From Octopus vulgaris (taxonomy: Eukaryota): DNA of 64,000 bases. Every line of letters begins with the position of its first letter. Position 1 is the stretch's first letter. Shown piece after piece: positions 21,125 to 63,644 of this stretch. The stretch is taken from positions 13,516,001 to 13,580,000 of the forward strand of contig OX597838.1 of assembly GCA_951406725.2 (NCBI GenBank), written 5' to 3'. The notes beneath the pieces were generated by a model that searched no databases, was not told the DNA's origin, and was given only the letters and a program-made list of their open reading frames with translations. Made by a program: the position numbers and the translations under genes.

Positions 21125-21229
21125 TTACACTTTGTCATTGTTCTCCAGGTTATACTCGATCAAAAGAGACTTAAATACTTCCAGGTTGCTTGATAACGAG
21201 TCCAGGTAGACCTGAAGGTCATTAATGAA
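21125..21229 (-). CDS. GLTP: GLTP coding exon 6
   Basis: FINDLQVYLDSLSSNLEVFKSLLIEYNLENNDKV*; acceptor ttccag. Confidence 0.88.
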   Translation of the reverse strand, partial: FINDLQVYLDSLSSNLEVFKSLLIEYNLENNDKV

Positions 21230-24200
21230 CTGGAATTCAATGGAAAAATATATATAAATATATTACACATATAACTTGAAAAATTGTGCTTGAAGGCATG
21301 ACACATTACCAAAAATTTGGGCTCAAAAAAGATAGTGCTACATTCCACTCCTATACTCTATGCCAGCATTTCTCAACTGGGGTTCTCCAGAAACCCTAGG
21401 GTTCTGTGAGAAAGAGTGAGATAGGCTAATGCAGTCCCACTGCATGGCATCTTGGGCAAATGTCTTCTATCACAGCCCCATGTTGACCTAAGCCTTTTGA
21501 GTAGATTTGGCAGACAGCAGCTGAAAGGAGGTTCTCATATACATATATCATCATCATAATTGCTTCCTAGCTACATGGTTTCGGGTTCAGTCCCACTGCG
21601 TGGCACTTTGGGTAGGTGTCTTCCACTATAGCCCCGAGCCGACCGGAGCTTTGTGATTGAATTCGGTAGGTGGAAGTTACTGCCGTGTGTGTATGTGTGC
21701 GTATAGCTGCTCAGTGCCTCTCCGAAAGAGAGAGAGAGGGATAATTATATATAAATAAAATGACAGTGGCACATAAAAGCACTCATGTGGTGACACGTAA
21801 AAGCGCCCATGCAGTACCACGTAAAAGTGCCCGTGCAGTACCACGTAAAAGCGCCCGTGCAGTACCACGTAAAAGTGCCTGTGCAGTACCACGTAAAAGC
21901 GCCTGTGCGGTACCACGTAAAAGTGCCTGTGCAGTACCACGTAAAAGTGCCTGTGCAGTACCACGTAAAAGCGCCCGTGCAGTACCACGTAAAAGTGCCT
22001 GTGCAGTACCACGTAAAAGCACCCGTGCAGTACCACGTAAAAGCACCCAGCACACTGTGTTAAGTTGTTAGCATTTGGAAGGGAATCCAGCTGTAGAACC
22101 CATGCTAAAATAGGCAGGAGTCTGGTGCAGTCTCACTGGCTTGCCAGCTCTGGTCACACATTTGTCGGCGCTAATCCAACCCATGCCAGCATGGACAACA
22201 GATATTTAATGATGATGAGTCTATATAAACACACACGTGTTGTTCATGCCTCGAAATCATGGTTGTTAAAGAACAACCAGCACTGTCGTTTAACTGATGT
22301 TTGTTTCCAGCATTCTGTGAAAAACCGCTCTATGTTACGCTGGTGAGACCCATATTGGAGTACGGGATCCAAGCCCTTTCTCCTTATCTCCTCAAAGACA
22401 TACATCATCTTGAAAGAGTCCAGAAGCTGGCTACCCGCATGGTTCTTGGTCTCAAGCATTTGTCTTATGAAGAAAGGCTGAAGACGCTCGACCTTTATTC
22501 TCTAGAAAAACGACGACGCCATGGTGATCTCATTCTCGCTCACAACATCATAAGCGGAAAGTGTAACCTCTCGAAAGAGCTGTTCTTCACTCCTGCTCCA
22601 GAGTGTAGGCTGCAGAGTCACTCCGAAAAGCTCTATCTGCGACGATTTCATCTCAATCGAAGGAGAGGGGCTTTCTTCGTCCGGGTTGCGGATCCGTGGA
22701 ATAAGCTACCGGACGAGATAGTGAAGATGCCGACGACCACTCGGTTCAAAGTCTCTCTTAACCAGAAATGGCCTGAACTCTTTGCATGAACACCCTCCCT
22801 GTACATAACTCCATGTCCCCCTACATGGCCTTGCTTTTTGCTTTTTGAGCCAAAAAATTAACTTAACTTAACTGACATTTGGCCATGGGGAAATAAATGC
22901 TGTTGGGTATCAAACTCATGACTTTATGATCATGAGCTGAATGCCCTAACCACTAAGCCATGTGCCTTCACAAAAGCCAGAATGTTATGAGTGGTAACAA
23001 AATATGGGCAGACAATTCGTTCAGTACTGTCTGTCCATGGGGGAAATATTACTTTACTTGGAATGTATACTGAACCAATTCTAGCATGCAATCGTTGAGT
23101 AAATAATTTAGTTAACCCACCTGTTCTTCATCTAAGTTGGTACCGTTACACAAAATGTTCATAAGGCCCGTACGGCTTGGGGCTGCTATTGAAATAATCT
23201 GGTGAAAGAGAGAGAAATATTGTAAAGGGTAACAGAAACAGCAATAACAACAGCAATGATGAAACAAGTTGGACACAAGCCAAAGCAAGAGCATCCTGAC
23301 CTGCTAGAAATAGCAGCCATATCCTCAAGGCTATTTTGAGTAATGAAACGCAGTCCTAAATACAGGCACAGGTGTGTCTATGTAGTAAGAAGCTTGCTTC
23401 CCAACGACATGGTTCAGGGTTCTGTTCCACCTTGGGGGGCAAGTGCGTTCTACTATATAGCCTTGGGTTGACCAAAGCCTTATGAGTGTATTTGGTAGGC
23501 AGAAACTGAAAGAAGCCCATTATATACATGTGTGTGTGTAGTTGCTTCCCGTAGTCACCACTTGACAAGTAGTGTTGGTTTGTTTATGTCCCTGTGATTT
23601 AACGATTCATTAAAAGAGACCGATAGAAATAGTACCAGGCTTTAAAAAAAAAAGATAAATTCTGAGCTTGATACATTTGACTAAACACTCTTCAATGCAT
23701 TGCTCCAGCATGGCCACCGTCTAATGACTGAAACAAGTAAAGAAATAGAGATACTTTATATGAATACAGGACATGCTGCAGTTGGAAGACCTGATCATAG
23801 GAAGACCCGATCATAGTTGTCTAACATGGACAACTGGATCAAAACTGACCTGGGGATAAAAAATGATGTATGAAGTTAAGTTAGTGAAGTTAATTTTTTG
23901 GCTCAAAAAGCAAAAAGCAAGGCCATGTAGGGGGACATGGAGTTATGTACAGGGTTATATATATATATAACATCATCATAAGTTGTTGACAGTAAACACC
24001 TGTATTGTTTGTTTGGTTCCTTGGAAGCAGCTCAAAATGCACAACACCTCTGTAATCCCATCAAATTGACAGCATGACCTTTTTTGATGCAATTCACCTT
24101 TTGATGTTGTTTCTGCTGGCTCATTACGCTTGGACCATGATGGTTTTCGATTGATATTATTGTAAACAATTTATTTCCCATCACCAGTGATGACTTCTTT

Positions 24201-24702: not shown

Positions 24703-26349
24703 TACGACAGGCTTCTTTCAGTTTCCATCTACCATATCCACTCAAGGCTTTGGTCGGCCCAAGGCTATAGTAGAAGACACTTGCCCAAGGTGCCACGCAG
24801 TGGAAATGAACCTGGAACCATGTGGTTGGTAAGCAAGCTACTTACCACACAGCCACTCCTGCGCTTATATTTAACATAATATCATAAGGTAACTGATATC
24901 TAAAAGATATAAAACTTTCAAGCAGGCAATGCAGCAGATCTAAAAAGCATTTAACCCTTTAGTGTTCAGATTATTCTGTTAAATGTAATACTTTTTCACT
25001 CAAATTGTTTGGAATTAATCATGCATTATCTTATAGCTTTGAGGTTTCAATGATGTCATCATCAATGTTTATTTTTAGAACGTCACTGTAGGTTAGGTGT
25101 GAGAGGCTGGATATCGCCAGTTTGAATATAAAACATGTATAATATATTGGGCCGGATGTGGCCGGTTTAAACACTAAAGGGTTAATGATAAATCCAAGAG
25201 GCATTAGAAAATGAGTGAATGAAAGACTGAGCAAATGAATGAAAGCAAAAAAAAAAAAAAAAAAAAATTCCTTACTGAAAATAGTTTCTGTACAAGCCAT
25301 CCATGGTATTGACTAAGTGTTTCATCATAGGACTTTTGAATGAGTGGATGTAGTGACTGAGATGTTTTTCCAGCTTTGTGTTCTTCCAAATATCCAGACA
25401 GAAAAACATATATGAATTCTAGAGCTCTAAAAGTAGAAATAACACCATCGTCAGGCTCGTCAATTTACTCGTTGACTCATCGTGTTAAGTGAATCTCTTT
25501 CAATTTATGTGGAACCCAAGTATCAAGCTTCTTAACAAGTCCAAGATATTTAGAATTATTTTCAATTGTTGTGCGATACATATAACACCTCTGCAATCTA
25601 TCACACACAATCAGATTCAATAATGGCTTTGATTCAGTCATCATCAACTTCAGTGGGTCGACCAGAATATTGGTCATCTTTGAGTGAAAAATCTCCAGAA
25701 TGGAATTCTTTATATCATTTCTGACATGTGCATTCTGTTAAGTAATCAATACCATAAACTTCACGTCTTTTTGTGAGTTTCACCAGCTTTCTTGCCTTTA
25801 CGGAAATAAAAGGCCAAAATATTGTGAAAATGTTTGTTTTTTGCACTCAATGTTAAAATTGACACTGAACTAACAGTTGGAGACAAAATTATGTGCAATT
25901 TGCTTCTAAAGTAAACTAAAAGTAACAGATTTCAAATGTCAAAGGGTAAAAAAATCATAACATTGACAAAAGTCATTAAAAAAAAATTGTAACTATTTAT
26001 GAAAAATGAAATTACTTTCTTGCCAACCCTAGATATATACACACACACACAAACACACATATATATATACATATATATATCACGTGATCAGATGTTGCTA
26101 CACATCGCTGGTCACAATGCGTTCGCATTGTTTTAGCCTTCGAATGACGCCACCCCGCTGGATAAGCGAGCAGGCCAATATATATATATATACATATATA
26201 CAAAATGAGAAAATGGAGAAATATATCTAAATCATTCATCAACTATCAGATAATACCGAATCATATACTTTATTAAAACACTACACAAGAGCATTAAGAT
26301 TAGACATTAATACAGTACAATAATTACAATCAATATAATGAGATATAAC

Positions 26350-26389: not shown

Positions 26390-29300
26390 TACATATATAT
26401 ATATATACACATACATATATGCATACTTACACATATGCACATACATATGGTTCAAATGTACAGAAAACAAAAGACCAAGACAGGTGAGGGAATAGCAAGC
26501 AGGTGTATTAATTTGACTCCCAGGAAAAATGGAAAAGTCTTTGATATTTTGAGCCTATGCTCTTTGACAGAAAAAAGATGAAAGGCAAAAAATGGAGAGA
26601 TAATGAAAAAAAATGAACAATTTGGGATTAACAGTTCTACATATTGAAATGACTGGAATAAAAGAAGCCAATGAAAGGGAAGATAACAGTGACTCATCTG
26701 AACTGAGTGTGCAAGTGCATGTGTGTGTGTATATGAGGATGTTGTGTGTGTGTGTGTGTGTGTGTGAGGGGGTGATCATAAGATTAGCACTCCACACAAA
26801 TGCATACAATAAATGTAGTTCATCATCACCAGCATCATAGTTTAGCATCCGTTTTCCATGCTAGCATGGGTTGGACGGTTCAACTGGGGTCTGGGAAACC
26901 AGAAGGCTGCACCAGGCCCAGTCTGATCTGGCAGTGTTTCTACAGCTGGATGCCCTTCCTAACGCCAACCACTCCGTGAGTGTAGTGGGTGCTTTTTACG
27001 TCGGTTGGTCGGTTGGTGCTTTTTACGTGCCACCGGCACGGAGGCCAGTCGGAATGGCGTTGGCAACGGCCACGTTCAGATGGTTCTCTGATGTGCCACC
27101 GGCACTGGTATCATAGCTACAATTTCCATTGATGTTGATCGATTTCGATTTTGATTTCAGTAGTTCTCAGGGGGGGGGGGCGGATTCAGCATGACAGTGT
27201 GTCAAGGCTGACCCTTTGAATTACAGGTACAATTCATTTTCCGTCAGCTGAGTTAACTGGAGCAGCGAGAAATAAAGTGTCTTGCTCAAGGAAGAAAGCA
27301 TTGCAAAACAAGGAGAGGGAGAAAAACATAAAAGGTGAAGATTACATATAAGAGGAAAGACATATTGCAAGGTAAGAGGAAGCAAACCCCAGCTAATCTT
27401 TATATATAAAAGTGAAGTTGTGTGTCTGTCTCCTACGATTTAGATTCCTAACTACTCCCACATTTTGCAGTGCAGTTTAACCAAAACCGGGTATCTTATA
27501 GTCGTGATTCATATCGAGCCCTTCTGGGTATTAGCACGCGTCTACGATGAGTTTACAATTTAAAAAAAAATTTACCATCAATTTTTCCCATTTTTGGCAT
27601 ATATAAGGGAAGTAACTCTCTAAAAATTTATTATTAAATCTCAGAACGTAAAAAGCTACAGTAACACCCCCTTTGTGGTTAGCCATATTGACATGGCTAT
27701 TATACTTTACATCTCTAAAAATGCTTATATAGTTATTTCCCTTACAAACCTGAGCAACGCCGGGCGATACTGCTAGTTAGAATTAAATTTATACTGGACA
27801 AAATACAGATGGAGTGCCTAAAATGATTACCTCTTCAACCAGAGTCCACTGATGCCAGCATAGTTTGTTGTCTTGTTCTCTTGTTCATCCAAGAACATTG
27901 CTTCAAGGTGGGAGAAGGTAGCAGGGTCCGTGTCATACTTGGTTTGTAGTTTCTGTAGTAAGGAGACAATTTATGAAGAACATATACAATGAGGTAAACC
28001 AGGGGTTTCCAAACTTTTTTGTTGTTATCGCCCACTTTTCCACACACAAAAATTCCCATCGCCCACCTGTGCAGTAATTTTCAGGATGCAAAAATAAAGC
28101 GCATTCAGAACGGTTGCTTAAAAAAAATGAAATATTGCAAAATGGGCATTCGGAGTTGAAACGTTATTCAGAAGAATGATGTTTTTGATTGCTAAATGTT
28201 TCTCAATGAAATAAAATTGAAAAATGATACATGTATTAAATGTTCAACAAACTCACCATTGGTTACCTATAACCTATTTCTTTATTACCCACAAGGGGCT
28301 AAACACAGCGGGGACAAACAAGGACAGACATAGGTATTAAGTCGATTTGATCGACCCCAGTGCGTAACTGGTACTTAATTAATCGACCCCAAAAGGATGA
28401 AAGGCAAAGTCGACCTCGGCGGAATTTGAACTCAGAATGTAGCGGCAGGCGAAATGCCGCTAAGCATTTCGCCTGGCGTGCTAATGATTCTGCCTTGGTT
28501 ACCTATAACCTTTGACTCATCCACTTGTATTCAGAAGATTGGAGAATTTGAATGAGTTGAGGACATTCCTGGCCATTTCATCTATTCGTCAAGAAATTGT
28601 ATTGTTACTAATTGGAATTTTCTTGGTAATCGTGTCAGACTTCTTGTGCATTAGAGTTGACAGAACTTCTTCAATGACAGGTCGAAGCAATGTTTCTCCT
28701 ACAGTGTGGGACTTCCTGGTCTTTGCGACCAGTAATGCAATATTGTACGACACAATCATACCATCATTTTCCTGTACAGTTGCTTCTGTAAACATCGTGT
28801 TCAGTGTTTTCTGCTTTTCGAAAGAAACCTTAAGTTGCCAAAAAATGACAATGGTTTGTCTTTTTTGTCAGAATACTTGGAATCAAAATGGTATTTCAAG
28901 TGTGAAGGCTTCATAGATTCATTGCTCAAAGTTTGCTGGCATAGAAGACAGTTCTGAGGAGAAGCAATAAATCCATAGGACAAATAATTAACGCTGTCCT
29001 GGTGACAAGTTTTCTTTACCGGAGGCATCAGGAAAGTAAAAATTCGAAAAAAGAATTCATAGAAGCAGAATCGGCAAAGGCAGAAATTCACAAAGCACAC
29101 TGATGTGTGTGCATCCAATGCAAGTGTAGCGACGTGGTTAATGGGTCTGGTCACTACTTTTGATCTCAGAATAGCCCTAAAAATGACTTATCATCATCAT
29201 CATCGTTTAACGTCCGTTCTCCATGCTAGCATGAGTTGGACGGTTCGACCGGGGATCTGGGAAGCCAGAAGGCTGCACCAAGCTCCAGTCTTATCTGGCG

Positions 29301-32300
29301 ATGTTTCTACAGCTGGATGCCCTTCCTAACGCCAACCACTCCGTGAGTGTAGTGGGTGCTTTTTACGTGCCACCTGCACTGGTGCCAGGCGAGGCTGGCA
29401 TCGGCCACGGTCGGATTGGTGCATTTTACGTGCCACCTGCACGGAAGCCAGTCGAGGTGGCACTGGCTTCAGCCACAATTCGGATGGTGCATTTTACATG
29501 CCACCTGCACGGAAGCCAGTCGAGGCGGCACTGGCTTCGGCCACGATTCGGATGGTGCATTTTACGTGCCACCTGCACGGAAGCCAGTCGAGGCGGCACT
29601 GGCCACATACGATAAAGATGAACGGATGAGGGAACAACAGATATAGTTTGTTCAGTGATTTCTTCCATACATGAAGTGGCAATACAGAAGTACCAGGAGT
29701 GTGTGAGCAGCAGAGGAGAGAAACGATGATATGCAAGCTGGGTCTGCCAAAGGTCAACTGGCGAAATCGTTTGAAGCCACTCTATTTATGCCAAAATAAT
29801 CATTTGATGTTTAGCCACTGTGTAGGCGTTTTATTTTGGTGACTAAAGAGTTGTTTGTCTCACTGGGGTGTGGTAGCTAGGTAGCAGATAGTGTTGTTTA
29901 GCTGTATACTACTTCCTTAGTTTAGACTAGGGAAAACATAATTACCAAAAATCCTTTATCGCCCACCATTTCTTAACCCTTTCATTACCAACCCGGCTGA
30001 AACCGGCTCTGGCTCTGAGTACAAATGTCTTGTTTTCGTAAGTTTTGAATTAAAATCTTCCATCAAACCTTGGTCACAATTTATGTTCCTAGCTGAATGA
30101 TAATTAAGTTATTTTACTAAATTCTTTGTTATATTTAAAGTAATTGAAAGAAACACAGATCATCTCAAAATAAATATAGTAATGAAAGGGTTAAAAATTT
30201 GTTTATCGCCCACCAGTGAGCGATATTGCCAGGTTGGGAAACCCTGATGTAAACATGCCATACAGCCACTGACTTTTTCCTTCTTGTTGTATCCAGGCCA
30301 ACCTAACCCCAACCCAGTAAAAATATGATCAAAGAAAAATACTCTGGCACTGAGCCTCATCGTTTACTTTGGTGGCAGGAGTCAATAAAGAACCAGTCAA
30401 GTACTGGAATTGATTTATCTTCTCTCATTCTCTCCCTTGAATCAACACTGAACACAATGTTTATGGAAGCAACTGATGGTATGATTGTGCCGTACAATAT
30501 TGATTCAACAGCACAAGACTGACCACGTCAAGAAACCCACCAATCTTTCCACTGCCCCTTCACTATTCAATGGTGCCCCCTCAGATTTACTCTACTTCAG
30601 CATTATTACAAGTGTCCACCCAGAATATTCTGAAGTACCCCCAGGTACCAAAGTCTGGCAGCAGGTCAGACACCAAATTGTCATAGTAACATTCAATTTT
30701 CTTTCTTTTTCTTGGGCAAGTGTCTTCTGCTATAGCCTCGGGCCGACCAAAGCCTTGTGAGTGGATTTGGTAGACAGAAACTGAAAGAAGCCCGTTGTAT
30801 ATATGTATATATATATGTATGTGCGTGTATGTTTGTGTGTCTGTGTTTGTCCCCCTAGCATTGCTTGACAACCGATGCTGGAGTGTTTACGTCCCCGTAA
30901 CTTAGCAGTTCGGCAATAGAGACCGATAGAATAAGTATTAGGCTTACAAAGAATAAGTCCCGGAGTCGAGTTGCTCGATTAAAGGCGGTGCTCCAGCATG
31001 GCCACAGTCAAAATGACTGAAACAAGTAAAAAGAGAGAAAGAGAGATATCTATACAGTGTGTTTCTTTCGGTTTACAATAACCAAATCCACTCACAAAGT
31101 TTCGGTTAGCACAAGGTTATAATAGAAGACACTTGCCCAAGGTGCCACCAACAGTTTGAACTTTCTTGCCCTTGGTTTGACATCTTCGACATCAGCAGTA
31201 ACGATCTGCTTAACATATTACTTGACTCTACAATCTTTTCCGTATCAACTTTAAACCAAAAGGCAGTCCGAATATATTAGAACTTGAACTCTTACCTCAA
31301 TGTTTCCAGTAATATCAGATCGAATTGGTGAGAAAGTAGTTCCAAAGCCTTCTGCAATAGAAAAGAAAATATTATCAGGACTATAACCTCATTCACCAGT
31401 GCGTAACCGGTACTTTATTTATCGACCCCGAAAGGATGAAAGGCAAAGTTGACCTCGGCGGAATTTGCTCTCCGGAATCGAACCCTAATTCCCCGTTGCC
31501 ACCACATAATTGATTTATTATCTCTCTCACTGAAATACTGGTATATTCACTTTGAATCCCTAGCTCCACTAATATAAATTACCTCCCCCATAATTACTAC
31601 CTAACTAAACCACCTTTAATATTAATTTCTATCTCTATTACACTTGCTTTTAGCATAATTTTATAAAAATCTCTTATACTAGTTAATATCTTGTACACAC
31701 AATGAGTAACCTTCTATCAACAAATGAAAATAGACAGTCTACCAATGAACAGGATATAAGTCTTTTTCAGGTAACATGTCAGAGAGATTTAGTTGAGTTA
31801 CTTGCCGTTTTTATAATGCAGCACTATTTATAACACCCACTTGCAGCTAGGTAGACTGGACAGCCAAGGCAGATAGGCTAAGTTTTTATGTTAACATGAA
31901 AATGCAATGTTCATGGTTACAGTAGAATTCTGGCGACAAAATATAAGCTACTGATCTCTCACAAGCTCAGCTGTTACCCAAACCACTCAGCCATTCATAT
32001 TCTTTCCAGACTATAAATACACAAGTGAAAATCAAAATCAAAATCGATCAACATCAATGGAAATCGTAGCAGTGATACCAGTGCCGGTGGCACATAAGAG
32101 AACCATCCGAACATGGCCATTGCCAGCACCACCCCGACTGGCCTCTGTGCCGGTGGCACGTGAAAAGCACCCACTACACTCATGGAGTGGTTGGCGTTAG
32201 GAAGGGCATCCAGCTGTAGAAACATTGCCAGATCAGACTGGGCCTGGTGCAGCCTTCTGGCTTCCCAGACCCCAGTTGAACCATCCAACCCATGCCAGCA

Positions 32301-50478: not shown

Positions 50479-53400
50479 CTACAAAATTAGAAAATGGAGA
50501 AACATACTTAAATCAATAAAACATCAACTATCAGATGATACCCAATCAATACTTTATTACACCATTACATATCAGTAAAGGCATTATACAAAATATACAG
50601 TAAAGGTAAATAGACAAGGAAATAGAAATATAAAATATAAAATATAATATGTAATTATATCATATCTGACAGCTGGATATATGTTATCCCATGGTGGGTT
50701 GAATTTTTCAACCCCTATCTCATTTTATAACCTATATATCTCTCTCTATATAAACGGCAGTTTGTCTGTGCGTTTTCTGTGTGTCTGTTTTCTCGTACCC
50801 TCACTCTGACCACGGCTTTCAACCGATTCTGATGAAACTTGACACACACACATAGCCCAATGTCATAATTCAAAACTAACGCAGCGAAAATTTTGAAAAG
50901 TTCCCCCAGTTCTGAAAAAAAATCGATAAATTCGACATGGGGTCGAGAATGAGAAACCCAAACCACAGACCGTCTAGGGGACGCAACTCCACCTGTTTTA
51001 ACTCTCAAAAAAAATTTACCATCATTTTTTTTCCATTTTTTTGCTATTTTTTGGCTATAACTCTCTAAAAATGCTTTATAGTTATTTCCCTTACAAACCT
51101 GAGCAACGCCGGGCGATACTGCTATCTCTCTCTATATAAACGGCAGTTTGTCTGTGCGTGTTTCTGTGTGTCTGTTTTCTCGTACCCTCACTCTGACCAC
51201 GGCTTTCAACCGATTCTGATGAAACTTGACACACACATAGCCCAATGTCATAATTCAAAACTAACACAGCGAAAATTTTGAAAAGTTCCCCCAGTTCTGA
51301 AAAAATCGATAAATTCGACATGGGGTCGAGAATGAGAAACCCAAACCACAGACCGTCTAGGGGACGCAACTCCACCTGTTTTAACTCAAAAAAATTTACC
51401 ATCATTTTTTTTCTATTTTTTGGCTATAACTCTCTAAAAATGCTTTATAGTTATTTCCCTTACAAACCTGAGCAACGCCGGGCGATACTGCTAGTATATA
51501 TATACATGTAAAAAAATACAAACTGGGACAAGAACGCAAAACATTTAGAAGACAATACAAAAAACACGGACGGGACATTCGAAGCCTTCAATCTTCAGTC
51601 AAGAACCGGATCATCCTCGCAATTTCGGCTGATTAATCTTGAGATTGCTCCGACCTGGCCAGCTCCAAAGGAAAATCTAAGCCAAGCGCATTAGATTCCT
51701 TGGAAGAAAGCCTCGAATGTTTGAATTTTATGGAAGAACTGACAGATTGTTTAGTTAGTTGACCTATGATACTTGGAAATACTAACGAATAACTTAGCTG
51801 GACTGGCTCTCGTGCCAGTGGCATGTAAAAAGCACCATTCGAGCATGATTGTTACCAGCATCACCTTACTGGTACTTGTGCCAGTGGCACGTGAAAAACA
51901 ACATTTGAGCGAGTTCATTACCAGTGCCACTGGACTGGCTCCTGTGCAGGTGGCATGTAAAAAACGCCATTTGAGTGTGGCCGTTGCCAGTACTGCCTGA
52001 CTGGCCCTCGTGCTGGTGGCACGCAAAAGCACCCACTACACTCGGAGTGGTTGGCATTAGGAAGTGCATCCAGCTGTAGAAACCCTGCCAGATCAGATTA
52101 GAGCCTATTGCAGCCATCTAGCTCGCCGGTCCTCAGTCAAACCGTCCAATCCATGCCAGCATGGAAAGTGGATGTTAAATGATGATGATTAATACATGTA
52201 TGTATGTATGTATGTATGTATGTATGTATGTATGTATGTATGTATGTATGTATGAATACATGCATGCATACATACATACATACATACATACATACATACA
52301 TACATACATACATACATACATACATACATACATACATACATACAAACAAACAAATAAACAAACCACTTGCTCAAGGTGCCACACTGTGGGATTGAACCCC
52401 AAACCATGTGTTTGGGAAGTAAACTTCTTAACCACCCAGTTATGCCTGCATCTATAAGTCACATAAATTCACATCTAGTTGACAGTAGTGTGTAGACCCG
52501 TAACTGACTAACACACAGTGCTGTACTGTTTGCTCCTCATTATACATAATGTTACTCTGTTCCCTTTTTCCTCTGTCCGAGTGTCCAGCCGTCTATAAAC
52601 GTGTCCTACTGTGTCTACTTGCAGTGCTGATGACCAACGTGAGAAGATGAAGAAGGAAGCGAAAGAGGCCAGTCTAAAGGCTCGACGCGTTAAACTGTCG
52701 ACCCTGTTACTTCATGAGAATAAACAGTATGAGGTAATATATGCTTTAGACTTTTAGGGTAACTTCTGGGTAACTGTTAAGGTTGACTTCATGGTTTATA
52801 TTGTTGAATACATTGAAAGCATGATGATTGTATTGTACAAGACGTTGTGAAGAATCAATGAAGAATCAGTGAGACAGTGTCACGTGACAACTTGCTGGGG
52901 CTGCCTGCTGGAGCCTATGCGGCAGGTATTTAAAGGGAAAAATTTGACAAGACAGTCAGTCACCGGCTGACACTCGCTGACGATACATCATCGAAGAGGC
53001 CAGGGAACAGAAGAAAGAAGACATGCACCCAACACCAGAGCTGAAGACACCTCCGAAAGGGGGGGGGGGCGCAGCCACGTCAAAACGGTAGAGGAGTAGG
53101 GGCCGAAACCGGACAAGGTTCCTCCTGATGATAAAGGAGCTGTTGTGGTAGCGGACCACGAAACACAAATGTCCTTAGTTCACAGCAGGGCTGGATTAAT
53201 GTCTGCCTTCCATGCTGGCATGGGTTGGACAGTTTGAGAGGAGTTTGCTAGGTGTGGGACTGCAACAGACTCCTGTGTCTGTTTTAGCATGGTTTTTATG
53301 GTTGGATGCCCTTCCTAATACCAACCACCCAGCAGAGTGGACTGAATGCTTCTTATGTAGCATAAACACAGGTGAGGTCAGTTTTGGCATGGTTTTTGTA

Positions 53401-54695
53401 GTTGGATGCCCTTCCAAATGTCAACCACTTTACAGTGTGGGCTGGATGCTTTTTACATGGTACCAACACTGGCAGGGTCACCAAGTAACTTGCAAGACAA
53501 ATATCCTTTGGAGGAGGTGATCTTGGGCCAGATGATAATAGGTTAGAGCAGTGCTTTTCAAACTTTTTGCTGGAGCGGAACCTCAAGGAATCATTCCACT
53601 TGCTCGAGGAACCCCTGTGCAATAATTTAATAGTCTTATGCACACATATCTGCACAGGAGAATTAAAAATCACTGCCGATTTTAGCAGTTTTGTAACTTC
53701 TTGCGGAACCCCTGGACTGTACTGGCGGAACCCTGGTTGAAAACCACTGGGTTAGAGTAACAGAGAGACAGAGAAGCAGAAACAGGTGTCTTGCTGTAGA
53801 CAAGGTACATGGTTTCCTGACCGGTGAGAGAATGGTAAAAATAGAAATATTGTGGGTCATTTTCAGAATAATAAAGGTTTTTCTAAAGCGTCTTCAGCAC
53901 TTCTTTTATTCTTTTAAAAGGCTGAACTGAAACAGCAGACACCTCGAAAGAATTACGAACTACTGGACCAGATGAAGGAACGTGTTGAAACGCTACAAAG
54001 TGCTCGGGAAATAAAGCGTAAACAGGTTTGTGTTGGCACCAAGATGTTTGCATATTTGTTCTTTAGTTGTTTCATGTTTACTCTTACTCTTTTACATGGA
54101 AACTTCCTCACACTCTCTATCATTCTCTCTCACCCACTCTTCTCTAATACTGTCTCTGTTACTCCCTCTCCCTTCCATTCCATTCTCTCACTCCCTCTCA
54201 CTCCCTCTCCCTCCAACTCTCTCCCAACCTTCTCCTTCTCGCTCCCTCTCTCATTCTCTCTCACTCACTCACATCTGTCTCTTTCACTCGCTTATTATTG
54301 TCTCTTTCAGTTGGCAGATGAGAAACTACTGGAACATTGGCAGAAAAATGCTCCTGAAATTCAACAGGTCAGTTGTTCTCATAGATTACATCTGTTACAC
54401 ACTCCTTCACTCACACTCCTTCACTCACACTCAGTGAGTCACTCATTGTCTCAACAGATTTCCTTCGCTTGAAACACTTTAACATGTCTGGGCTGTTTGT
54501 GGTTCAGTTGATTATTACCTCCCTTAGAAGCAACTACTCTCCTGTTGGTGGCAACAAGAAAGGCTTCAGAAAACTCTGGCTCAATGTTACTCACCTCTTA
54601 TTCATGCAAGCATGGAAAGTGGATTGCACACACATGCATACACACACATGCACATACACACACACGCATACACGCATGCACACACATACACGCAT

Positions 54696-54729
<34 letters not shown>

Positions 54730-54939
54730 CTTTTCTCAATTTATAGAACTAAAAGGATTCTTTTACAACTTCCAGGACTCTATAAAATGGAAATAAAATT
54801 CCAGAATACATAAATATAAATAAATAGACAAATGTTGATGTAATACATAAAACATGATCAAATTTAAGAAAAATGTCTTTTGTAAGTACTTTAGTATGAT
54901 GAAATTAAAAATTTTTCTTGAGAGAATTAAGTGTGTGTA

Positions 54940-54983
<44 letters not shown>

Positions 54984-57900
54984 ATTTATGTATGTATGTA
55001 TATATCATCATCATCATCATTTAGCGTCCGCTTTCCATGCTAGCATGGAAAGCGGACGCTAAATATATATATTTAAATATATATATAAGCACCAACCGAT
55101 CATGGCCATTTGCCAGCCTCCCCTGGCCCCTGTACCGGTGGCACGTATAAAGCACCCACTACACCCATGGAGTGGTTGGCGTTAGGAAGGGCATCCAGCT
55201 GTTGAAACACTGCCAGATCAGACTGGATGTTAAAGGATGATGATGATGATGATAATGTATTAAGTATTGAAGAGATATTAAAAACAACGAAAGAAAAAAT
55301 ATAAAAATCTCATCTATGGCACATTTCAGAGATGTGCCAAGGATTATGACATATTTCATATTATTAATCATGGCACTCCTCTCATCAGGATGTTAGACAA
55401 AGGTCGTTAACACATCTACATACCAGAACCGGTTAACCGTCAATGTTTAACATCCCGATGAGGAGGGGAGTAATTTGAATAGTGCCAAATCCATGCAATT
55501 GCTGAAGGACAATTTGATACCAGACTTGGATGAAGGTGAGATATTTCAGCATGGTGAGGTTCCATGCCACAGATCGCGTGCAACACAATAGCATTTGGCT
55601 GATGAAGGTGTTACCATATTGAAAGATTGGCCAGCTTAGAGCCCTGACTTCAATATCATCAAGCAAATATGGACAGAACTAGAGAGGAGGGTTCGTCTGA
55701 AAAACCTACACAATCTTGAAGAGTTGTAGGAGCTCAGCCACAGAGAATGGCATCTCATACCTGTGAAGATGGTGAAGGATTTGTACACATCTCTTCCCAG
55801 GTGCATTGAAGCAATTATTCAAACCAGGGGAAGCCATACAAAATAACAATGTACAGTAAATTCTTGAAAGGAACATTATGTAATAAATTTTCATTATAGA
55901 CATTTTTCTGTTTTAAAACCTTGTATCATGATTGGTTTATGTGAGGTTGCCGAAAACTTTTGCACAGCCATTTTTGGTGATCGTTTCACATGTTCCCTTC
56001 TCATTCAGAACCCTGACTACGAAATATAATGATTAGGTATGGAAATGATTCCAACAGGACCAATGTTTCATCTGTAAAAAATGCAATGTGAAACATCCAC
56101 TTATAAGTTGGCTATTAGTAGAAATTTACAATAGTTTTAAGTGGTCAAAGATTTTTGCATGGTACTCTGGCACCTGTGCCGGTGGCACGTAGAAAGCATC
56201 CATTACACTCATGGAGTGGTTGGCATTAGGAAGGGCATCCAGCTGTAGAAACACTGCCAGATCAGACTGGGCCTGGTACAGCCTTCTGGCTTCCCAGACC
56301 CAGTTGAACCGTCCAACCCATGCTAGCATGGAAAGCGGACGCTAAACGATGATGAACAATGAATAAGCATATGCATAAATATATGTTTGTATATATAATT
56401 CCGAGAAAGTTAGAGGTTGTGAACCCAACCAACTAAGGGATAATATCTATCCAATATACTGCTGGTAGAATACCCAATTATTAATACACAAGTGTTTTTT
56501 ATTGCATTGCAATTACATTACCGAGTCTACTAAATAGGTGAGGGTAGAGAGTTATTTTACCATTAATTTTTAGAGCAATAAGAAAATGGAGGGGATCAAT
56601 AGGTGGTATTCATCATATATATATATATACATATATGTCTATATTTTGTAAATGTGCATTTTACAAAACAGTCTATTCCTATAGAACGTTATATCTAACC
56701 CTTTATTTGGTAATACTTATTTCTTTCAGGTCGACCGAAAATTACTTACTGAGCATGTTGTATCAGAGTGGGACCATCAGCTGGAAGATGCAAAAAAGGT
56801 TTGATTTCCTTCCTTCCTTCCTTCCTTCTTCCCCTCCACATGTTCATTCATTTGCTGAAGTATTGTCCCTTCCTCTCTTTGTATCATCCTAAAACACACA
56901 CTCACCAACTAAACTCTCTTCTGAACATTCTACCTAGTTCTAAATTACTGCGCACACTTGCGTGCACACACACACACACACACACACACACCATCATCAT
57001 TGTCATCATCATCATCATCATCATTATCATTTTACATCTAATTTTTCTTCTCAATGCTGGTATGGTTTGAATATATCTCAAAATATCTCTACCATCCAGC
57101 ACATACACCACTACAGAGAAAACTACTCAACTTAGTTGTGCATATCTTACAATGTAGACTGGATGCATTTTATCCTGCCTCCAGCTCTGAAGACGTTGTC
57201 TTGTGGAATTGATGTCATTTGGTAGACACAAACATTCCTTTTTGCTCAAAAGTTACCAGCCTTACCTCTTACAGTTACCATATTTATTGGTTAATAAGAT
57301 GTACTCCTATTTTTCCAAGTATATTTGTGGAAGGAAAAGCAACCTTAGTGTGTTTGATCATACATGTTTTGAAAGAGAGACTATCTTTCTTAACCATTTA
57401 GTATTTAAACTGGTCACATCTGGCCCAAATATGGATCTGACTTCTCACATCTACCCTACAATGAATGAATGAGTGACTGAATGGATGAATGAATGAATGG
57501 ATGAATGAATGGATGAATGAATGAATGGATGAATGAATGGATGAATGAATGGATGGATGAATGAATGGATGAATGAATGGATGGATGAATGAATGGATGA
57601 ATGAATGGATGGATGAATGAATGGATGAATGAATGGATGGATGAATGAATGGATGGATGAATGAATGAATGACTGAATGAATGAATGGATGAATGAATGG
57701 ATGAATGAATGGATGGATGGATGGATGGATGAATGGATGAATGAATGGATGGATGGATGGATGGATGAATGAATGGATGAATGAATGGATGGATGGATGG
57801 ATGGATGAATGAATGGATGGATGAATGAATGGATGGATGAATGGATGGATGAATGGATGGATGAATGAATGAATGACTGAATGAATGAATGAATGGATGA

Positions 57901-60900
57901 ATGAATGGATGAATGAATGGATGGATGGATGGATGGATGAATGAATGGATGAATGAATGGATGGATGGATGGATGGATGAATGAATGGATGGATGAATGG
58001 ATGGATGGATGAATGGATGGATGAATGAATGAATGACTGAATGAATGGATGAATGGATGAATGAATGGATGAATGAATGGATGGATGGATGAATGAATGG
58101 ATGAATGAATGGATGGATGGATGGATGAATGAATGGATGGATGGATGGATGGATGGATGAATGGATGGATGGATGGATGGATGGATGGATGAATGGATGG
58201 ATGGGTGGGTGGGTGGGTTTTGGGGATTTGGGTGGGTGGGAAAGAGGTAGGTCCAGGAAGACATGGGATGTGGTGGTGAGTCATGATCTTTGGATGTTGA
58301 GTTTCAATGAGGCAGTGACAAGTGATTACTTTTTGTACAAGTTTTTACCAAATATTGTTCTTTTCCATACTGAAACTACTTGGTAGAATTTATTAATTAT
58401 ATATATGTATATTATATATGTATATGTATATGTGTATTATATATGTATGTATATTATATATGTATATATATATATGATTCTACACTCGCGGAGTGGTTGG
58501 CGTTAGGAAGGGCATCCAGCCGTAGAAACACTGCCAGATCTGACTGGGCCTGACGAGGAGATATTATATATGTATATATATGTATATATATATGTATATT
58601 ATATATGTATATATATGTATATATATGTATATATATATGTATATATATATTTTAGTATATTATGCTTATTATATTGTTGTGAACATCACTTCCACAGAGT
58701 CTCTTCACTTTAAGTACATCTATCATCTTTGATCTGCATTACATGTCCCACACCGTTCATTTGTCTCTTTTGCACACTATGTTTGATCCGTCTGATAATC
58801 AGTTTATCCCCTCAACACTTTAATACTATCATTCATACGTTGTACATCCGGTGAAACATATTTGCTTTATTTCTTTCTAGGTTTTTGTAAAAAAACTTTG
58901 TTTGAGTTGTTTTAACAAGGATTTCTTTTTTTTTTTGTTTTTTTTCCCTCTCTCACAACCAACTTCAGCAAGCTGAAGAGAAGGCAAAGGAAGAAGAGAC
59001 CTACCGGCAGCAAATGGAGGAGGAAATGAAGGCTGCAGCCAAGAAAGAGGAGATGGAGCAGGAGAAGAGGATTAAGCAACGGAAGACTTTGCAAGAAATA
59101 CTGAAGCAGCAGATGGGAGAACTGAAAAGAAAAGAGGAAGAGGTGAGGTCCTATAGGGATCCATAGCCTGGGATGTATCTGTTTTGCTGTTCCTGTAGGT
59201 GTTTGTCTTGTTTTGTCCTTTTTTATGCTTAGTTCCTCTATCATGGCTGAAGGTGAATGAGAAGTTGGTGTTTTTCACGTGTGTGTTCTTCTTCATCATT
59301 TCTTTTCTTCTGTTTCAGTCATAGGACTGTGGCCATGCCGGAGCACCACCTTGAGGTACTACTTGTTTTTGCCAACTGAGCAGATGTGAAATAAAGTGTC
59401 TTGCTCAAGGACATAACGCACTGCCAGGTATTGAACTCACAGCCTTATGATTGTGAGCTGAATGACCTAACCACTAAGCCACATGCCTTCGCATATTTTA
59501 GTAATTAAAAATTTGATTTACTTTTTTTTATATTTCTTTAATAATTAATATTTTTACTGTAACAATTACATCAAAGCAGTCTGATTGGCAGAAACGTTAG
59601 CATGCCGGGTGAAATGCTTAGCAGTATTTCATCTGCCGTTATGTTCTGAGTTCAAATTCCGCTGAGGTCGACTTTGCCTTTCATCCTTTCGGGGTCGATA
59701 AATTAAGTACCAGTTACGCACTGGGGTCGATGTAATCGACCTGATCCCTTTGTCTGTCCTTGTTTGTCCCCTCTATGCATATCCCTTTGTGGGCAATAAA
59801 GAAATAAGAATTGTTAAAGTATGAAACAATGTAAAGCCTTTTATGTTCTGAATTCAAATGCCACCCAGGTGAACTTTGCCTGTCAGTCTCCCAACTACTG
59901 GAGTCTATAGAGTCAACTATGTTCTCTCTCTCTCTCCAAATTCAACATCTTGTGCCTGCCCACATGAAAATTTAATATTTATAACTACATTTTCACAATA
60001 AATGTAATTATGTTTTTCTATGTATTTAATTAAATTTTCATTAAAGAGGTTTAGTTGAATTACACTTAATTCAATGTTATTTTCTAATATAAGAAGGATC
60101 CTTGTTTTTTTTATTATATATTACTTTGATTGTCTCCATTAAGTTTTTTTTTCTCGTTAATCTTAATTGGTCATCTAAAGTGGCAAGCTGGAAGAATTGT
60201 TACCATGCCTGACAAAATGCTTAGTGGCATTTCGTCTGTCTTCGTGTTCTGACTTCAAATTCTACCATGGTCAACTTTGCCTTTCATCCCTTTTGGAGGT
60301 CGATAAAAATCAAGTACCACTTGGGTACTGGGGTCAATGTAATCGATTTACTCCCTCTCTCCCTCCCTCGGAATTGTTGGCCTTGCACCAAAATTTGAAA
60401 TCAGTCTTAACTGGTTTATCACATGTGTTGAGTTCCATGTGAAACGTTTTGTTGTGTTTCAGGCTGCAGAACTTCAGGAACAACAGGCCAAGATAGAGAA
60501 GGAGAAATACCAGATGGAAGTGATGGAAAACGAGCGTAGGAAAGTGGAAGAGAGGAGGAAAAAGCAAGACTTTGGGTGAGTCTCTTTCCACCGCATTACC
60601 ATCACCATCACCACTGTATGCACCACCACCACCACCACCACCACCACCACCACCACCACTGCCATCAGCATTACTACTATCATTGCAACCATGACAACAG
60701 TCACCACTATTAGCCTGTCATTTCCCCCACTACCTCTTACATCCCTAACTCTATCATTACCTCCATAATCATTTTCATCGTCATTGTCATCACTACCTCC
60801 CTCATCATCATCACTACCACACCATCATCTTCATCTCATGACCCGGCAACGCCGGGTCATAGTGCTAGTTAAGTAATAGAAGGGATATAATTTTATACTA

Positions 60901-63644
60901 GTGTTTATATAATATTTTAGTTTCATAACAGCCAATGTTTGTTATCGATTGGTTTCCTGCTGAAAAACCTTCCAGAAGTGGAGAAGTGAATTGGCTGATT
61001 TGAAAAGTATAGAAATAAAAAATAACACAACTAAACTCGAGTTCATGTTCTAATAGAATTATCTTTCTTACTTTTTTCAGACGTGTGTTACTAAGACAAC
61101 ATAAGACCCAAATGCAATGTCAAGCAAGGAAAGTACAGAAAGAATTAGTAAGAAACTTTCTAGATTGGTTTGTGGGTTTATGTGATATGGCTATAGGTCT
61201 ATGTTCTGTGTGGGCTTATATGATATGGCTATAGGTCTATGTTCTGTGTGGGCTTATATGATATGGCTATAGGTCTATGTTCTGTGTGGGCTTATATGAT
61301 ATGGCTATAGGTCTATGTTCTGTGTGGGCTTATATGATATGGCTATAGGTCTATGTTCTGTGTGGGCTTATATGATATGGCTATAGGTCTATGTTCTGTG
61401 TGGGCTTATATGATATGGCTATAGGTCTATGTTCTGTGTGAGCTTATATGATATGGCTGTAGGTCTATGTTCTGTGTGGGCTATATGATATGGCTATAGG
61501 TCTATGTTCTGTGTGGGCTTATATGATATGGCTATAGGTCTATGTTCTGTGTGATATGGCTATAGGTCTATGTTCTGTGTGGGCTTATATGATATGGCTA
61601 TAGGTCTATGTTCTGTGTGAGCTTATATGATATGGCTGTAGGTCTATGTTCTGTGTGGGCTTATATGATATGGCTATAGGTCTATGTTCTGTGTGGGCTT
61701 ATATGATATGGCTATAGGTCTATGTTTTGTGTGGGCTTATATGATATGGCTATAGGTCTATGTTCTGTGTGAGCTTATATGATATGGCTGTAGGTCTATG
61801 TTCTGTGTGGGCTTATATGATATGGCTATAGGTCTATGTTCTGTGTGGGCTTATATGATATGGCTATAGGTCTATGTTCTGTGTGGGCTTATATGATATG
61901 GCTATAGGTCTATGTTCTGTGTGGGCTTATATGATATGGCTATAGGTCTATGTTCTGTGTGGGCTTATATGATATGGCTATAGGTCTATGTTCTGTGTGG
62001 GCTTATATGATATGGCTATAGGTCTATGTTCTGTGTGAGCTTATATGATATGGCTGTAGGTCTATGTTCTGTGTGGGCTTATATGATATGGCTATAGGTC
62101 TATGTTCTGTAAGGGCTTATATGATATGGCTATAGGTCTATGTTCTGTGTGGGCTTATATGATATGGCTATAGGTCTATGTTATGTGTGGGCTTATATGA
62201 TATGGCTATAGGTCTATGTTCTGTGTGGGCTTATATGATATGGCTATAGGTCTATGTTCTGTGTGGGTTTATATGATATGGTTATAGGTCTATGTTCTGT
62301 GTGGGCTTATATGATATGACTATAGGTCTATGTTCTATGTGGACAGGTTGGATGACCTGTAATATGTGACTGTGTCTCTGGTATGATAATATTCTCAGGA
62401 ATGTATCGTTGTAACAATGATATATTATAGTATGTGATTGGAGCAGGGAAGTCTCATCATAAATTTATTACTGAGGTAAGAAGTTGTCATAGTCAATATA
62501 TGACTGAATAGAATGGAAATGTCATAGTGAATATATGACTAAGGTCGAGAGTTCATAATTAATTAAGTATCATGATAAATGTATGACTGAGTTAGATTAG
62601 CAGTATCATTGTAAATTTATGACTGAGGTAGGTTTATGGATTCATGACTGAAGCAAGGAAGTTATCATAATCAACATTTAATGTTGTTTCCCATAAATTG
62701 GACGGCTTGACATGAACTGGCAAAGCCAGGGGCTGCACCAAGTTCCATAGTTTGTTCTGACTTGGTTTTTACAGTTGGATGCCCTTCCTAACACCAACCA
62801 CTTTATAGGGTGTACTAGGTGCTTTCAGTGTGGCACCAATGCTTTTTAAGTGGCACCAGAACCCACAGCAATGCTTTTTAAAGTGGCACCTCAGTTTCAG
62901 GATATCGGTCCTGTTGTGTATTAGAGTAAATGTATAACTGAGTTAGGAAAATATAATAGTGAAAGTACCACTGAGACAGTGAAGTATCAGAGAAAGGTTG
63001 GGTGTCCCATAATAGTAAATGTATGAGTGAGGTAGGGAAGGGGATTGTAAATTGCCCCTTTTCTCAAAATACATCAAGGTGTGTTACTATGGAGTAGTTT
63101 ATGAAAGTGGTCAATAAATTTGTATAGAAAATCTCAGATTAACTATAACAGACGGATAGAGAAAGGTGTCTTACTATAGAAGAAATGCTTGTCTACTCCA
63201 GCAAGAAAAGACAGGAGAGGAAGGAGAGAGTGGAGAGGAAGATGGGGAGACAGGCAGTGAGAGAAACGTTGGAGATGCATCAGGACCTACCCACAGGGAA
63301 CATTGTGGGGATATAAGTGCTACAGAGGTGTTAGAGGGGGATGTTCTATAAGAGCGTGAAGGGAGATGTTTCGAGATGAGGGAGAGGTGGCTGTAGCAAA
63401 TGATGGCGGAAGATATTGGAGTGATTGGGACAGGAATATGGTAGTTGTGTGGTGTGGGGACATGGAGAGTGTGGGGATAGGCACATGAGGGAGAATGGCT
63501 TGGTCTAAGAAATGTGGTTTACTTTTTTAACAGGAAGAAGACTGGAAGCTGTTGTCCATGTTGGTAGACAGAGAGAAAGAACTCGAACAAATTGAAACAG
63601 CCAAGAGACAGGCAGCACTGAATGATGCCAGATGGATGAAAGAG
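46870..63644 (+). CDS. TCHP: trichoplein keratin filament-binding protein, first 9 coding exons (333 aa, 3' end outside window)
   Basis: join(46870-47063,52625-52733,53921-54025,54311-54367,56730-56798,58969-59142,60463-60575,61081-61147,63534-63644) = 999 nt in frame, all GT-AG; MALPTL start, [16 protein letters not shown] and DARWMKE match human TCHP (MALPTL, LYEHWKKNNP, HVVNSW, DVAWMKQ). Confidence 0.93.
47498..47750. repeat. 13/9-bp minisatellite (TCTTATATTCTAR)n
   Basis: Direct tandem repeat. Confidence 0.9.
48760..49150 (+). mobile_element. Penelope-like GIY-YIG endonuclease remnant
   Basis: [46 protein letters not shown], with frameshifts. Confidence 0.65.
50739..51494 (+). mobile_element. 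head-to-tail Helitron dimer
   Basis: Two ~380-bp units (50739-51124, 51125-51494); A|TC start; 3' hairpin and CTAG|T; 3' end shared with the 7744 family. Confidence 0.82.
52193..52343. repeat. (TATG)n-(CATA)n inverted microsatellite
   Basis: Self-complementary arms around a short ATACATGCATG centre. Confidence 0.9.
52625..52733 (+). CDS. TCHP: TCHP coding exon 2
   Basis: (S)[36 protein letters not shown]. Confidence 0.9.
53549..53749 (-). mobile_element. hAT MITE (same family as 41078)
   Basis: Perfect 8-bp TSD GGTTAGAG. Confidence 0.9.
53921..54025 (+). CDS. TCHP: TCHP coding exon 3
   Basis: [35 protein letters not shown]. Confidence 0.9.
54311..54367 (+). CDS. TCHP: TCHP coding exon 4
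   Basis: [19 protein letters not shown]. Confidence 0.92.
55380..55972 (+). mobile_element. Tc1 transposase 3' remnant
   Basis: [43 protein letters not shown]; ends in TIR-like ACTTTTGCACAGCCA. Confidence 0.75.
56730..56798 (+). CDS. TCHP: TCHP coding exon 5
   Basis: [23 protein letters not shown]. Confidence 0.9.
57460..58215. repeat. (TGGA/TGAA)n compound microsatellite
   Basis: ~750 bp simple repeat, directly following a truncated family F MITE. Confidence 0.95.
58969..59142 (+). CDS. TCHP: TCHP coding exon 6
   Basis: [38 protein letters not shown]. Confidence 0.92.
60463..60575 (+). CDS. TCHP: TCHP coding exon 7
   Basis: [37 protein letters not shown](G). Confidence 0.92.
60840..60868 (+). 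mobile_element. Helitron 3' terminus
   Basis: Perfect hairpin GACCCGGC-AAC-GCCGGGTC then CTAG|T, preceded by (CAC/CAT)-rich sequence. Confidence 0.6.
61081..61147 (+). CDS. TCHP: TCHP coding exon 8
   Basis: [22 protein letters not shown]. Confidence 0.9.
61168..62342. repeat. 38-bp minisatellite x~31
   Basis: TGTGGGCTTATATGATATGGCTATAGGTCTATGTTCTG units. Confidence 0.95.
63534..63644 (+). CDS. TCHP: TCHP coding exon 9
   Basis: [37 protein letters not shown]; cag/gtaagt. Confidence 0.92.

What the first reader, a model, noticed from the sequence alone, without database searches (positions are those of the whole stretch)
21125..63644. GLTP-TCHP head-to-head pair matches the human arrangement
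Seen: GLTP (-) and TCHP (+) are divergent neighbours with start codons 9.1 kb apart and only repeats and UTR candidates in between. Established (from memory): human GLTP and TCHP are adjacent and divergent on 12q24.11, and coleoid genomes lost much ancestral microsynteny. Inference: a bilaterian-age gene pair held together by a shared promoter, linking glycolipid transfer with a centriolar / ER-mitochondria contact protein (trichoplein/mitostatin).
Basis: partly seen in the sequence, partly recalled or inferred. Interest (0 to 1): 0.7.

Follow-up and report, generated by a model that had tools for sequence, protein, structure and literature searches.

The report
Old back-to-back octopus gene pair
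Two octopus genes, a glycolipid carrier (GLTP) and the centriole protein trichoplein (TCHP), sit back to back and are also neighbours in vertebrates, likely a leftover of an ancient animal gene neighbourhood, but their RNA ends lie about 2.8 kb apart with repeats between, so one shared on-switch is unlikely.

Summary
GLTP (minus strand, a true GLTP, not FAPP2 or CPTP) and TCHP (plus strand) are divergent neighbours with start codons 9,140 bases apart and no detected coding gene between. They are also neighbours in two other octopods and four vertebrates, but not in the sea anemone Nematostella. No bivalve, gastropod, annelid, echinoderm or amphioxus could be tested, so 'bilaterian age' is inferred (about 0.75). 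It gains support from three more genes of the human 12q24.11 region on the same octopus chromosome: a KCTD10-type gene 91 kb away and a GIT/ANKRD13 divergent pair 9.5 Mb away. The shared-promoter idea is not supported: RNA contigs show two separate non-coding first exons whose ends are about 2.8 kb apart, and 62% of the gap is repeat. No functional link was found. Verdict: probably a new example of a known kind, a conserved ancestral head-to-head pair. A published database lists the block as a vertebrate novelty. The scan had not noted this pair before; it noted a similar pair (ARMC1-MTFR) elsewhere in this genome.

The parts
21125..21229 (-). GLTP coding exon 6 (105 bases, stop codon)
23121..23198 (-). 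GLTP coding exon 5 (78 bases; exons 5+6 = 183 bases = human last exon split by an extra intron)
25276..25426 (-). GLTP coding exon 4 (151 bases, same size as human exon 4; holds His137)
   Evidence: Pfam GLTP E=2.7e-11
27831..27952 (-). GLTP coding exon 3 (holds Trp93)
31296..31351 (-). GLTP coding exon 2 (holds Asp49, Asn53)
   Evidence: RNA contig loose end at 37622 reads into this exon
37622..38197 (-). GLTP exon with start codon (ATG at 37730) and about 470 bases of 5' UTR
   Evidence: (one contig bridges the microsatellite at 37803-37846)
38964..39259 (-). GLTP non-coding first exon; contig 5' ends at 39146, 39152 and 39259 (not a mapped start site)
   Evidence: spliced joint, 766-base GT-AG intron, in 2 of 4 runs; exon covered in 3 of 4
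39240..39759 (.). 127-base tandem array, 4 copies, between the two first exons
39260..42044 (.). Gap between the transcribed ends, 2.8 kb, 62% covered by repeats found elsewhere in the neighbouring 264 kb
41903..42212 (+). Unique CpG-rich stretch, likely TCHP promoter (CpG o/e 1.87; window mean 0.48; 0.07-0.27 from 42600 on)
   Evidence: promoter role inferred
42045..42159 (+). TCHP non-coding first exon
   Evidence: one contig joins it to 46827 in 2 of 4 runs listed; covered in 2 of 4 runs listed; GT/AG ends
46827..47063 (+). TCHP exon with start codon (ATG at 46870)
52625..63644 (+). TCHP coding exons 2-9 (52625-52733, 53921-54025, 54311-54367, 56730-56798, 58969-59142, 60463-60575, 61081-61147, 63534-63644); five further exons lie up to 6.5 kb past the window end

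Best explanation
GLTP and TCHP are divergent neighbours in octopods and neighbours in vertebrates, likely because the pair was inherited from the last common bilaterian ancestor, and in this octopus each gene likely starts from its own promoter, the two RNA ends lying about 2.8 kb apart across repeats. Shown: gene identities, orientation, absence of a detected gene between them, separate spliced first exons, repeat fill, adjacency in three octopods and four vertebrates, and a KCTD10-type gene two detected genes away. Inferred: common ancestry of the arrangement. Also inferred: the pair lasts because the stretch between the two 5' ends is a small target that carries the upstream control DNA of both genes, so breaks there are rare or harmful. 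It may once have been a compact two-way housekeeping promoter that repeat insertions have since pushed apart.
For: Orthology: best solved-structure match is GLTP (4e-28) over FAPP2 (7.8e-19) and CPTP (5.3e-9). The genome's two other GLTP-fold loci match CPTP and FAPP2 best. The first four intron phases equal human. TCHP aligns end to end with a rodent TCHP, 37% over 504 columns. Adjacency: consecutive or near-consecutive accessions in 3 of 3 octopods with both proteins (CAI9740647/48; XP_014775862/860; GAB1608140/139). Consecutive rows of one block in mouse, elephant shark, frog and zebrafish (PMC8851819 supplement). Wider block: a KCTD10/13-type gene 91 kb from GLTP; KCTD10 is listed in the same human region. 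GIT (-) and ANKRD13 (+) lie on the same octopus chromosome, divergent. A rough null with assumed inputs gives 0.05-0.75 chance head-to-head matches per genome and a 1-3% chance of a given third gene within six places. Separate first exons and repeat fill. In print: 5'-5' pairs are the best-kept class of ancient pairs (PMC3514665), and ancestral two-way promoters were often disentangled in vertebrates (PMC6292497).
Against: Nematostella has TCHP at NV2.15666 and GLTP at NV2.16849, 1,183 ids apart, in a table whose ids follow genome order for a control pair. No non-cephalopod bilaterian invertebrate was tested, so the pair falls short of the four-lineage rule for an ancient pair. A 49-genome survey lists the block as 'Vertebrata novel' and shows no invertebrate GLTP row, although it needs three genes per block and the stored file is cut. 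Other human neighbours did not follow: the MMAB-type hit is on C6, RAD9 on C9, 0 of 47 HECT matches and 0 of 2 GHMP-kinase matches are on C25. KCTD10 was noticed after the fact, and genes of one ancestral linkage group share chromosomes anyway. Contig ends are not start sites. The retention mechanism is untested.
Confidence: 0.6

Rival explanations
1. The two genes came together twice by chance, in octopods and in vertebrates, while being shuffled within the same ancestral linkage group.
For: Not neighbours in Nematostella. Block called a vertebrate novelty. No intermediate lineage shown. Several other human neighbours are elsewhere in the octopus genome.
Against: Rough chance of head-to-head adjacency for a same-chromosome pair is 0.0005-0.001, and fewer than one such match is expected per genome (assumed inputs). 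The KCTD10-type gene lies close in both, and GIT/ANKRD13 are divergent on the same chromosome.
Confidence: 0.17
2. One two-way promoter still drives both genes and keeps them together because glycolipid transfer and trichoplein act jointly at ER-mitochondria contacts or the centriole.
For: Head-to-head order. The 9.1 kb shrinks to 2.8 kb at RNA level. Human GLTP binds the ER protein VAP (PMC3261905). Ancient 5'-5' pairs tend to be co-expressed. A further upstream GLTP exon hidden by repeats cannot be excluded.
Against: The gap exceeds the 1 kb signature cited and is 62% repeat. No contig covers 41874-42035 or 39282-39929, and the only gene-type joint listed is the GLTP UTR intron. CpG-poor DNA (o/e 0-0.39, 39200-39899) separates the two ends. 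The FFD core of the VAP-binding motif reads FLE in octopus. No paper links the two genes functionally in searches. The human gap of about 20 kb is recalled.
Confidence: 0.11
3. The pair is ancestral but kept with no selection at all: a passive remnant of a larger block that rearrangement has not yet hit between these two genes.
For: Other members of the block survive nearby or on the same chromosome. The region tolerates many repeat insertions between the promoters. No conserved non-coding element was tested or found.
Against: Both head-to-head junctions (GLTP/TCHP, GIT/ANKRD13) appear kept while the tail-to-tail TCHP/GIT junction is broken, as a constraint on 5' regions predicts. This is n=2, and the human orientations are recalled.
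Confidence: 0.12

Closest known systems
Conserved ancestral microsyntenic pairs (CAMPs), 5'-5' class (Irimia et al. 2012, PMC3514665; abstract and Results parts 1-2 read, supplement unavailable)
   Same: Unrelated genes, adjacent and divergent, in lineages split at the protostome-deuterostome divide; no developmental regulator involved.
   Different: Shown in only two major lineages (the paper requires four); absent in Nematostella; co-expression untested; whether the pair is in their Table S2 could not be seen.
Bidirectional housekeeping promoters of amphioxus and vertebrates (Marletaz et al. 2018, PMC6292497; passages read, 4 supplement files searched with no hit)
   Same: Divergent genes with a CpG-rich unique stretch at one 5' end.
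   Different: The RNA ends are 2.8 kb apart with a tandem array and dispersed repeats between, which fits a disentangled pair better than a live two-way promoter.
Block 1098 'Vertebrata novel' of Robert et al. 2022 (PMC8851819; passages and matching supplement rows seen, file cut)
   Same: The same two genes, in consecutive rows for mouse, elephant shark, frog and zebrafish.
   Different: Dated there to vertebrates; the octopus arrangement suggests at least this pair is older. Their method needs three genes per block.
Human GLTP gene at 12q24.11 (Zou et al. 2008, PMC2262070; passages read)
   Same: Intron phases 1,0,2,0; exon 4 of 151 bases; 6 of 7 headgroup-recognition residues.
   Different: One extra intron in the last exon, a non-coding first exon, Asp in place of Tyr207, and an altered FFAT-like core.

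Membership tests
GLTP (not FAPP2/PLEKHA8 or CPTP) | GLTP fold domain PF08718 alone, about 200 aa, no PH domain | tested here: met
   (206-aa records)
GLTP (not FAPP2/PLEKHA8 or CPTP) | Closer to GLTP than to its paralogues, with the paralogues accounted for elsewhere in the genome | tested here: met
   (with the 90%-identical relative P0001); three loci; C26 locus best matches CPTP, C2 locus FAPP2; single exon 4 only marginally prefers GLTP; no tree with named paralogues was built
GLTP (not FAPP2/PLEKHA8 or CPTP) | Headgroup-recognition residues Asp48, Asn52, Lys55, Trp96, His140, Tyr207, Val209 | tested here: met
   6 of 7 kept (D49, N53, K56, W93, H137, V206); Tyr207 is Asp
GLTP (not FAPP2/PLEKHA8 or CPTP) | Vertebrate intron positions and phases | tested here: met
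   4 of 4 phases shared; sizes 109/56/122/151/78+105 vs 103/59/134/151/183
GLTP (not FAPP2/PLEKHA8 or CPTP) | Glycolipid transfer activity | not testable with these tools
   needs a transfer assay
TCHP/trichoplein (not CFAP53) | About 500-aa TPH-domain coiled coil aligning end to end with vertebrate TCHP better than with CFAP53 | tested here: met
   PF13868 on the named records; argonaut orthologue 37% over 504 columns to rodent TCHP, E 1e-61, against 2.3e-5 for mammalian CFAP53 and 5.6e-23 for a solved TPH-domain chain; E-values come from different libraries
CAMP (ancient microsyntenic pair) | Non-paralogous genes with four or fewer genes between | tested here: met
CAMP (ancient microsyntenic pair) | Linked in at least four major animal lineages | tested here: inconclusive
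CAMP (ancient microsyntenic pair) | Conserved 5'-5' orientation | tested here: inconclusive
   shown in this window; vertebrate orientation recalled; accession order gives no strand
Bidirectional promoter | Divergent start sites under 1 kb apart | tested here: not met
   contig ends 39146-39259 vs 42045-42050, about 2.8 kb; contig ends only approximate start sites
Bidirectional promoter | One shared open-chromatin/CAGE region and correlated expression | not testable with these tools
   only assembled contigs were served; no raw reads, CAGE or ATAC

The most novel reading that the evidence does not exclude
The human 12q24.11 run KCTD10 ... GLTP><TCHP - GIT2><ANKRD13A, listed as a vertebrate novelty, is a fragment of the Urbilaterian genome, with the TCHP-ANKRD13 link going back to the cnidarian split. 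In octopus it survives as two intact head-to-head pairs, broken exactly at the tail-to-tail junction. That would be a natural experiment showing that divergent pairs resist breakage even after their promoters have been pushed kilobases apart.
Probability: 0.4. Interest if true: 0.5.

Novelty: new member of a known kind. Interest (0 to 1): 0.33.

Why it matters
Hundreds of such ancient pairs are known, so one more is modest news. If confirmed, it would re-date a block listed as vertebrate-specific. It would also give a test case for why head-to-head pairs persist once they no longer share a core promoter. It does not, on present evidence, point to a joint function of glycolipid transfer and trichoplein.

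Tried and rejected
1) Accession-order test outside cephalopods failed for lack of matched pairs. GLTP accessions were obtained for a chiton, a bivalve and five spider species. TCHP accessions were obtained for a jellyfish, two sponges, two placozoans, a sea anemone, a priapulid, a tunicate, a horseshoe crab and kangaroo rats. No species had both. I looked up 20 of the 150 TCHP representatives listed, minus one slot given to a GLTP. 2) Metagenome scan: the TCHP alignment was unusable; the GLTP alignment gave 1 of 210 stretches, a 4.5-kb contig not followed up. 3) Supplements: Irimia 2012 unavailable; no GLTP/TCHP hit in the held files of PMC7269912 (3 files), PMC6292497 or PMC11136973 (3, plus one unreadable), which may simply lack the needed tables. 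The one GLTP-domain row in PMC9023564 sits with beta-CASP and B3/4 genes and is probably CPTP (neighbours recalled). A whole-genome oyster annotation (PMC12064177, file 4) would test a bivalve but was not seen. 4) Protein atlas gave no answer. 5) FAM222A search rang nowhere, so it is uninformative. 6) No listed run is on record as RNA. I treat the runs as RNA only where contigs skip GT-AG introns, and depth was not used to rank expression. 7) Earlier-findings look-ups for this pair were empty. 8) The TCHP tree (89 sequences of 380-620 aa) served only to choose look-ups. 9) Ten stretches further left were fetched but not analysed. 10) PMC10734178 lists GLTP, GIT2 and ANKRD13A together in pig but not TCHP, and adds nothing on order. 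No fold or complex job was run: nothing suggests the proteins bind.

Full report
What is there. The window is G000:C25:13,516,001-13,580,000. Its proteins match records named for octopuses. On the minus strand six GT-AG exons encode a 206-aa GLTP; on the plus strand nine exons give the first 333 codons of TCHP (the exon-4 acceptor of GLTP was set to 25426 from the options listed there, checked against record P0014). Five more TCHP exons follow within 6.5 kb beyond the window. The start codons are 9,140 bases apart, and 0 of 84 frames of 45 aa or more between them match Pfam.

Gene identity. The close relative P0001 matches solved GLTP at 4e-28, FAPP2 at 7.8e-19 and CPTP at 5.3e-9. The genome holds three GLTP-fold loci: the C26 locus best matches CPTP, the C2 locus FAPP2, and the window's locus GLTP. 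The first four intron phases equal those of human GLTP, exon 4 has the same 151 bases, and the last human exon (183 bases) is split 78+105 (PMC2262070 passages). Six of seven headgroup-recognition residues are kept; Tyr207 is Asp. The argonaut TCHP aligns end to end with a rodent TCHP at 37% and far more weakly with mammalian CFAP53.

How widely is the pair kept? In 3 of 3 octopods with both proteins the accessions are consecutive or two apart, and for two of them the contig lengths agree. In the supplement of PMC8851819, GLTP and TCHP fill consecutive rows of block 1098, 'Vertebrata novel', for mouse, elephant shark, frog and zebrafish; no invertebrate GLTP row appears in the stored part, which is cut. 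That method needs three genes per block. Human TRPV4, GLTP and TCHP share a 130-kb segment (PMC4231109 table), and the region is conserved in jawed vertebrates (PMC9664204 passages). Human strand and spacing (about 20 kb) are recalled. Against: in the Nematostella gene table (PMC10946136 supplement), where a control pair has consecutive ids, TCHP is NV2.15666 and GLTP is NV2.16849, and the FAPP2 homologue is elsewhere too. I could test no bivalve, gastropod, annelid, echinoderm or amphioxus. A bilaterian age is therefore an inference from two lineages.

The wider neighbourhood. Scanning flanking frames against Pfam (left flank: all but about 4 of 182 candidates plus 34 of 35 from the window's left part; right flank: 80 of 220) gives the order KCTD-type BTB gene (-), FET-family RNA-binding gene (+), yellow/MRJP gene (+), GLTP (-), TCHP (+), matrix metalloprotease (+), trypsin-like gene (-). 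Both BTB exons match the KCTD10/KCTD13 group best by ten orders of magnitude, 91 kb from GLTP. Human KCTD10 is listed in the same region, with MMAB, UBE3B, MVK and TRPV4 before GLTP (PMC10137185 table). GIT (-, 23.076-23.095 Mb) and a UIM-bearing ANKRD13 (+, from 23.253 Mb) lie divergently on the same chromosome, 9.5 Mb away. Among 150 of 286 candidate frames in that 200 kb, only transposon domains lie between them. Human GIT2 and ANKRD13A flank TCHP (listed; order and strands recalled), and in Nematostella an ANKRD13 gene is two ids from TCHP. Other human neighbours did not follow: MMAB-type on C6, RAD9 on C9, no HECT or GHMP-kinase match on C25. A rough null with assumed gene counts expects 0.05-0.75 chance head-to-head matches per genome and a 1-3% chance of a given third gene within six places. 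Ancestry is favoured, at about 0.75.

Shared promoter? Assembled contigs from seven public runs (RNA status guessed by the tool, supported by GT-AG joints) show a TCHP first exon 42045-42159 spliced to 46827 and a GLTP first exon from 38964 to 39146, 39152 or 39259 spliced across a 766-base intron. Some GLTP contigs run unspliced to 38706-38937. The transcribed ends are thus about 2.8 kb apart, not 9.1 kb, but still well over the 1-kb signature of two-way promoters (PMC3514665). The gap holds a four-copy 127-base array and is 62% repeat. A unique CpG-rich stretch surrounds the TCHP first exon (o/e 1.87), and CpG-poor DNA at 39200-39899 separates it from the GLTP end. Contig ends are not start sites, and repeats could hide a further GLTP exon, so this lowers but does not exclude a shared promoter.

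Functional link? None found. Searches for GLTP with TCHP (2 papers, both lists of vertebrate neighbours) and trichoplein with glycolipid transfer protein (1 paper, listing only) show no study of the pair, and none of the arrangement in an invertebrate; unseen supplements, above all Table S2 of PMC3514665, may list it. Human GLTP binds VAP through a motif with an FFD core (PMC3261905 passages); the aligned octopus site reads FLE. That paper notes such motifs vary and may sit nearby, so the point is weak. Trichoplein's centriolar and mitochondrial roles are recalled.

Mechanism. Most likely an inherited divergent pair in which each gene now has its own promoter. The short interval carrying both genes' upstream DNA is rarely broken, and may descend from a compact two-way promoter of the kind reported to be disentangled in vertebrates (PMC6292497). 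The apparent survival of both head-to-head junctions and loss of the tail-to-tail one fits this, but rests on two cases and a partial scan. Rivals: chance re-association (0.17), passive remnant (0.12), live shared promoter with joint function (0.11).

Verdict. Real, probably a new member of a known kind. Squid keeps about as many ancient blocks as scallop (275 vs 216; PMC9023564 passages), so survival in a coleoid is not very surprising. Interest 0.33.

Noticed in passing
G000:C25:23,076,092-23,275,000 (L032-L051): GIT (-) and ANKRD13 (+) are divergent with 158 kb between their innermost detected coding exons and only transposon domains found between (150 of 286 frames scanned); likely a second ancient head-to-head pair of the same human region.
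   Followed up: partly
L021:1818-2273, L020:180-425 and L013:3888-7923: A KCTD10/KCTD13-type gene (-) and a FET-family gene (TAF15/FUS/EWS-like, +) are divergent neighbours 57-91 kb left of GLTP; human KCTD13/FUS and TNFAIP1/TAF15 share chromosome arms (recalled).
   Followed up: partly
window 4703-5140 (+) and L011:5325-6140: Yellow/major royal jelly protein family gene whose last exon ends in a hydrophobic tail; it is the downstream neighbour of GLTP.
   Followed up: partly
L002-L003 (window-equivalent 67246-70519): The public 399-aa TCHP model P0010 ends in an aberrant tail, but the genome holds the three missing 3' exons for a full protein of about 500 aa; the annotation looks truncated.
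   Followed up: partly
window 21125-21136: Octopus GLTP has Asp where human has Tyr207; chiton, bivalve and spider GLTPs also lack Tyr there, so headgroup preference may differ from vertebrates.
   Followed up: no
Nematostella table rows NV2.15664-15671 and NV2.16842-16851: TCHP lies near ANKRD13 and RAD9 homologues, and GLTP near paxillin and a T-box gene; human relatives of these lie in 12q24 (RAD9B and ANKRD13A, the rest recalled), suggesting one ancestral linkage group.
   Followed up: no
L005:2415-6428, L006:1694-2023, L008:5600-5848: A matrix metalloprotease with hemopexin domain (+) and a trypsin-like gene (-) follow TCHP.
   Followed up: no
window 57450-58200 and 61170-62340: Large intronic tandem arrays inside TCHP (a 4-base-unit microsatellite mosaic and an array with a unit of about 44 bases), read by eye.
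   Followed up: no
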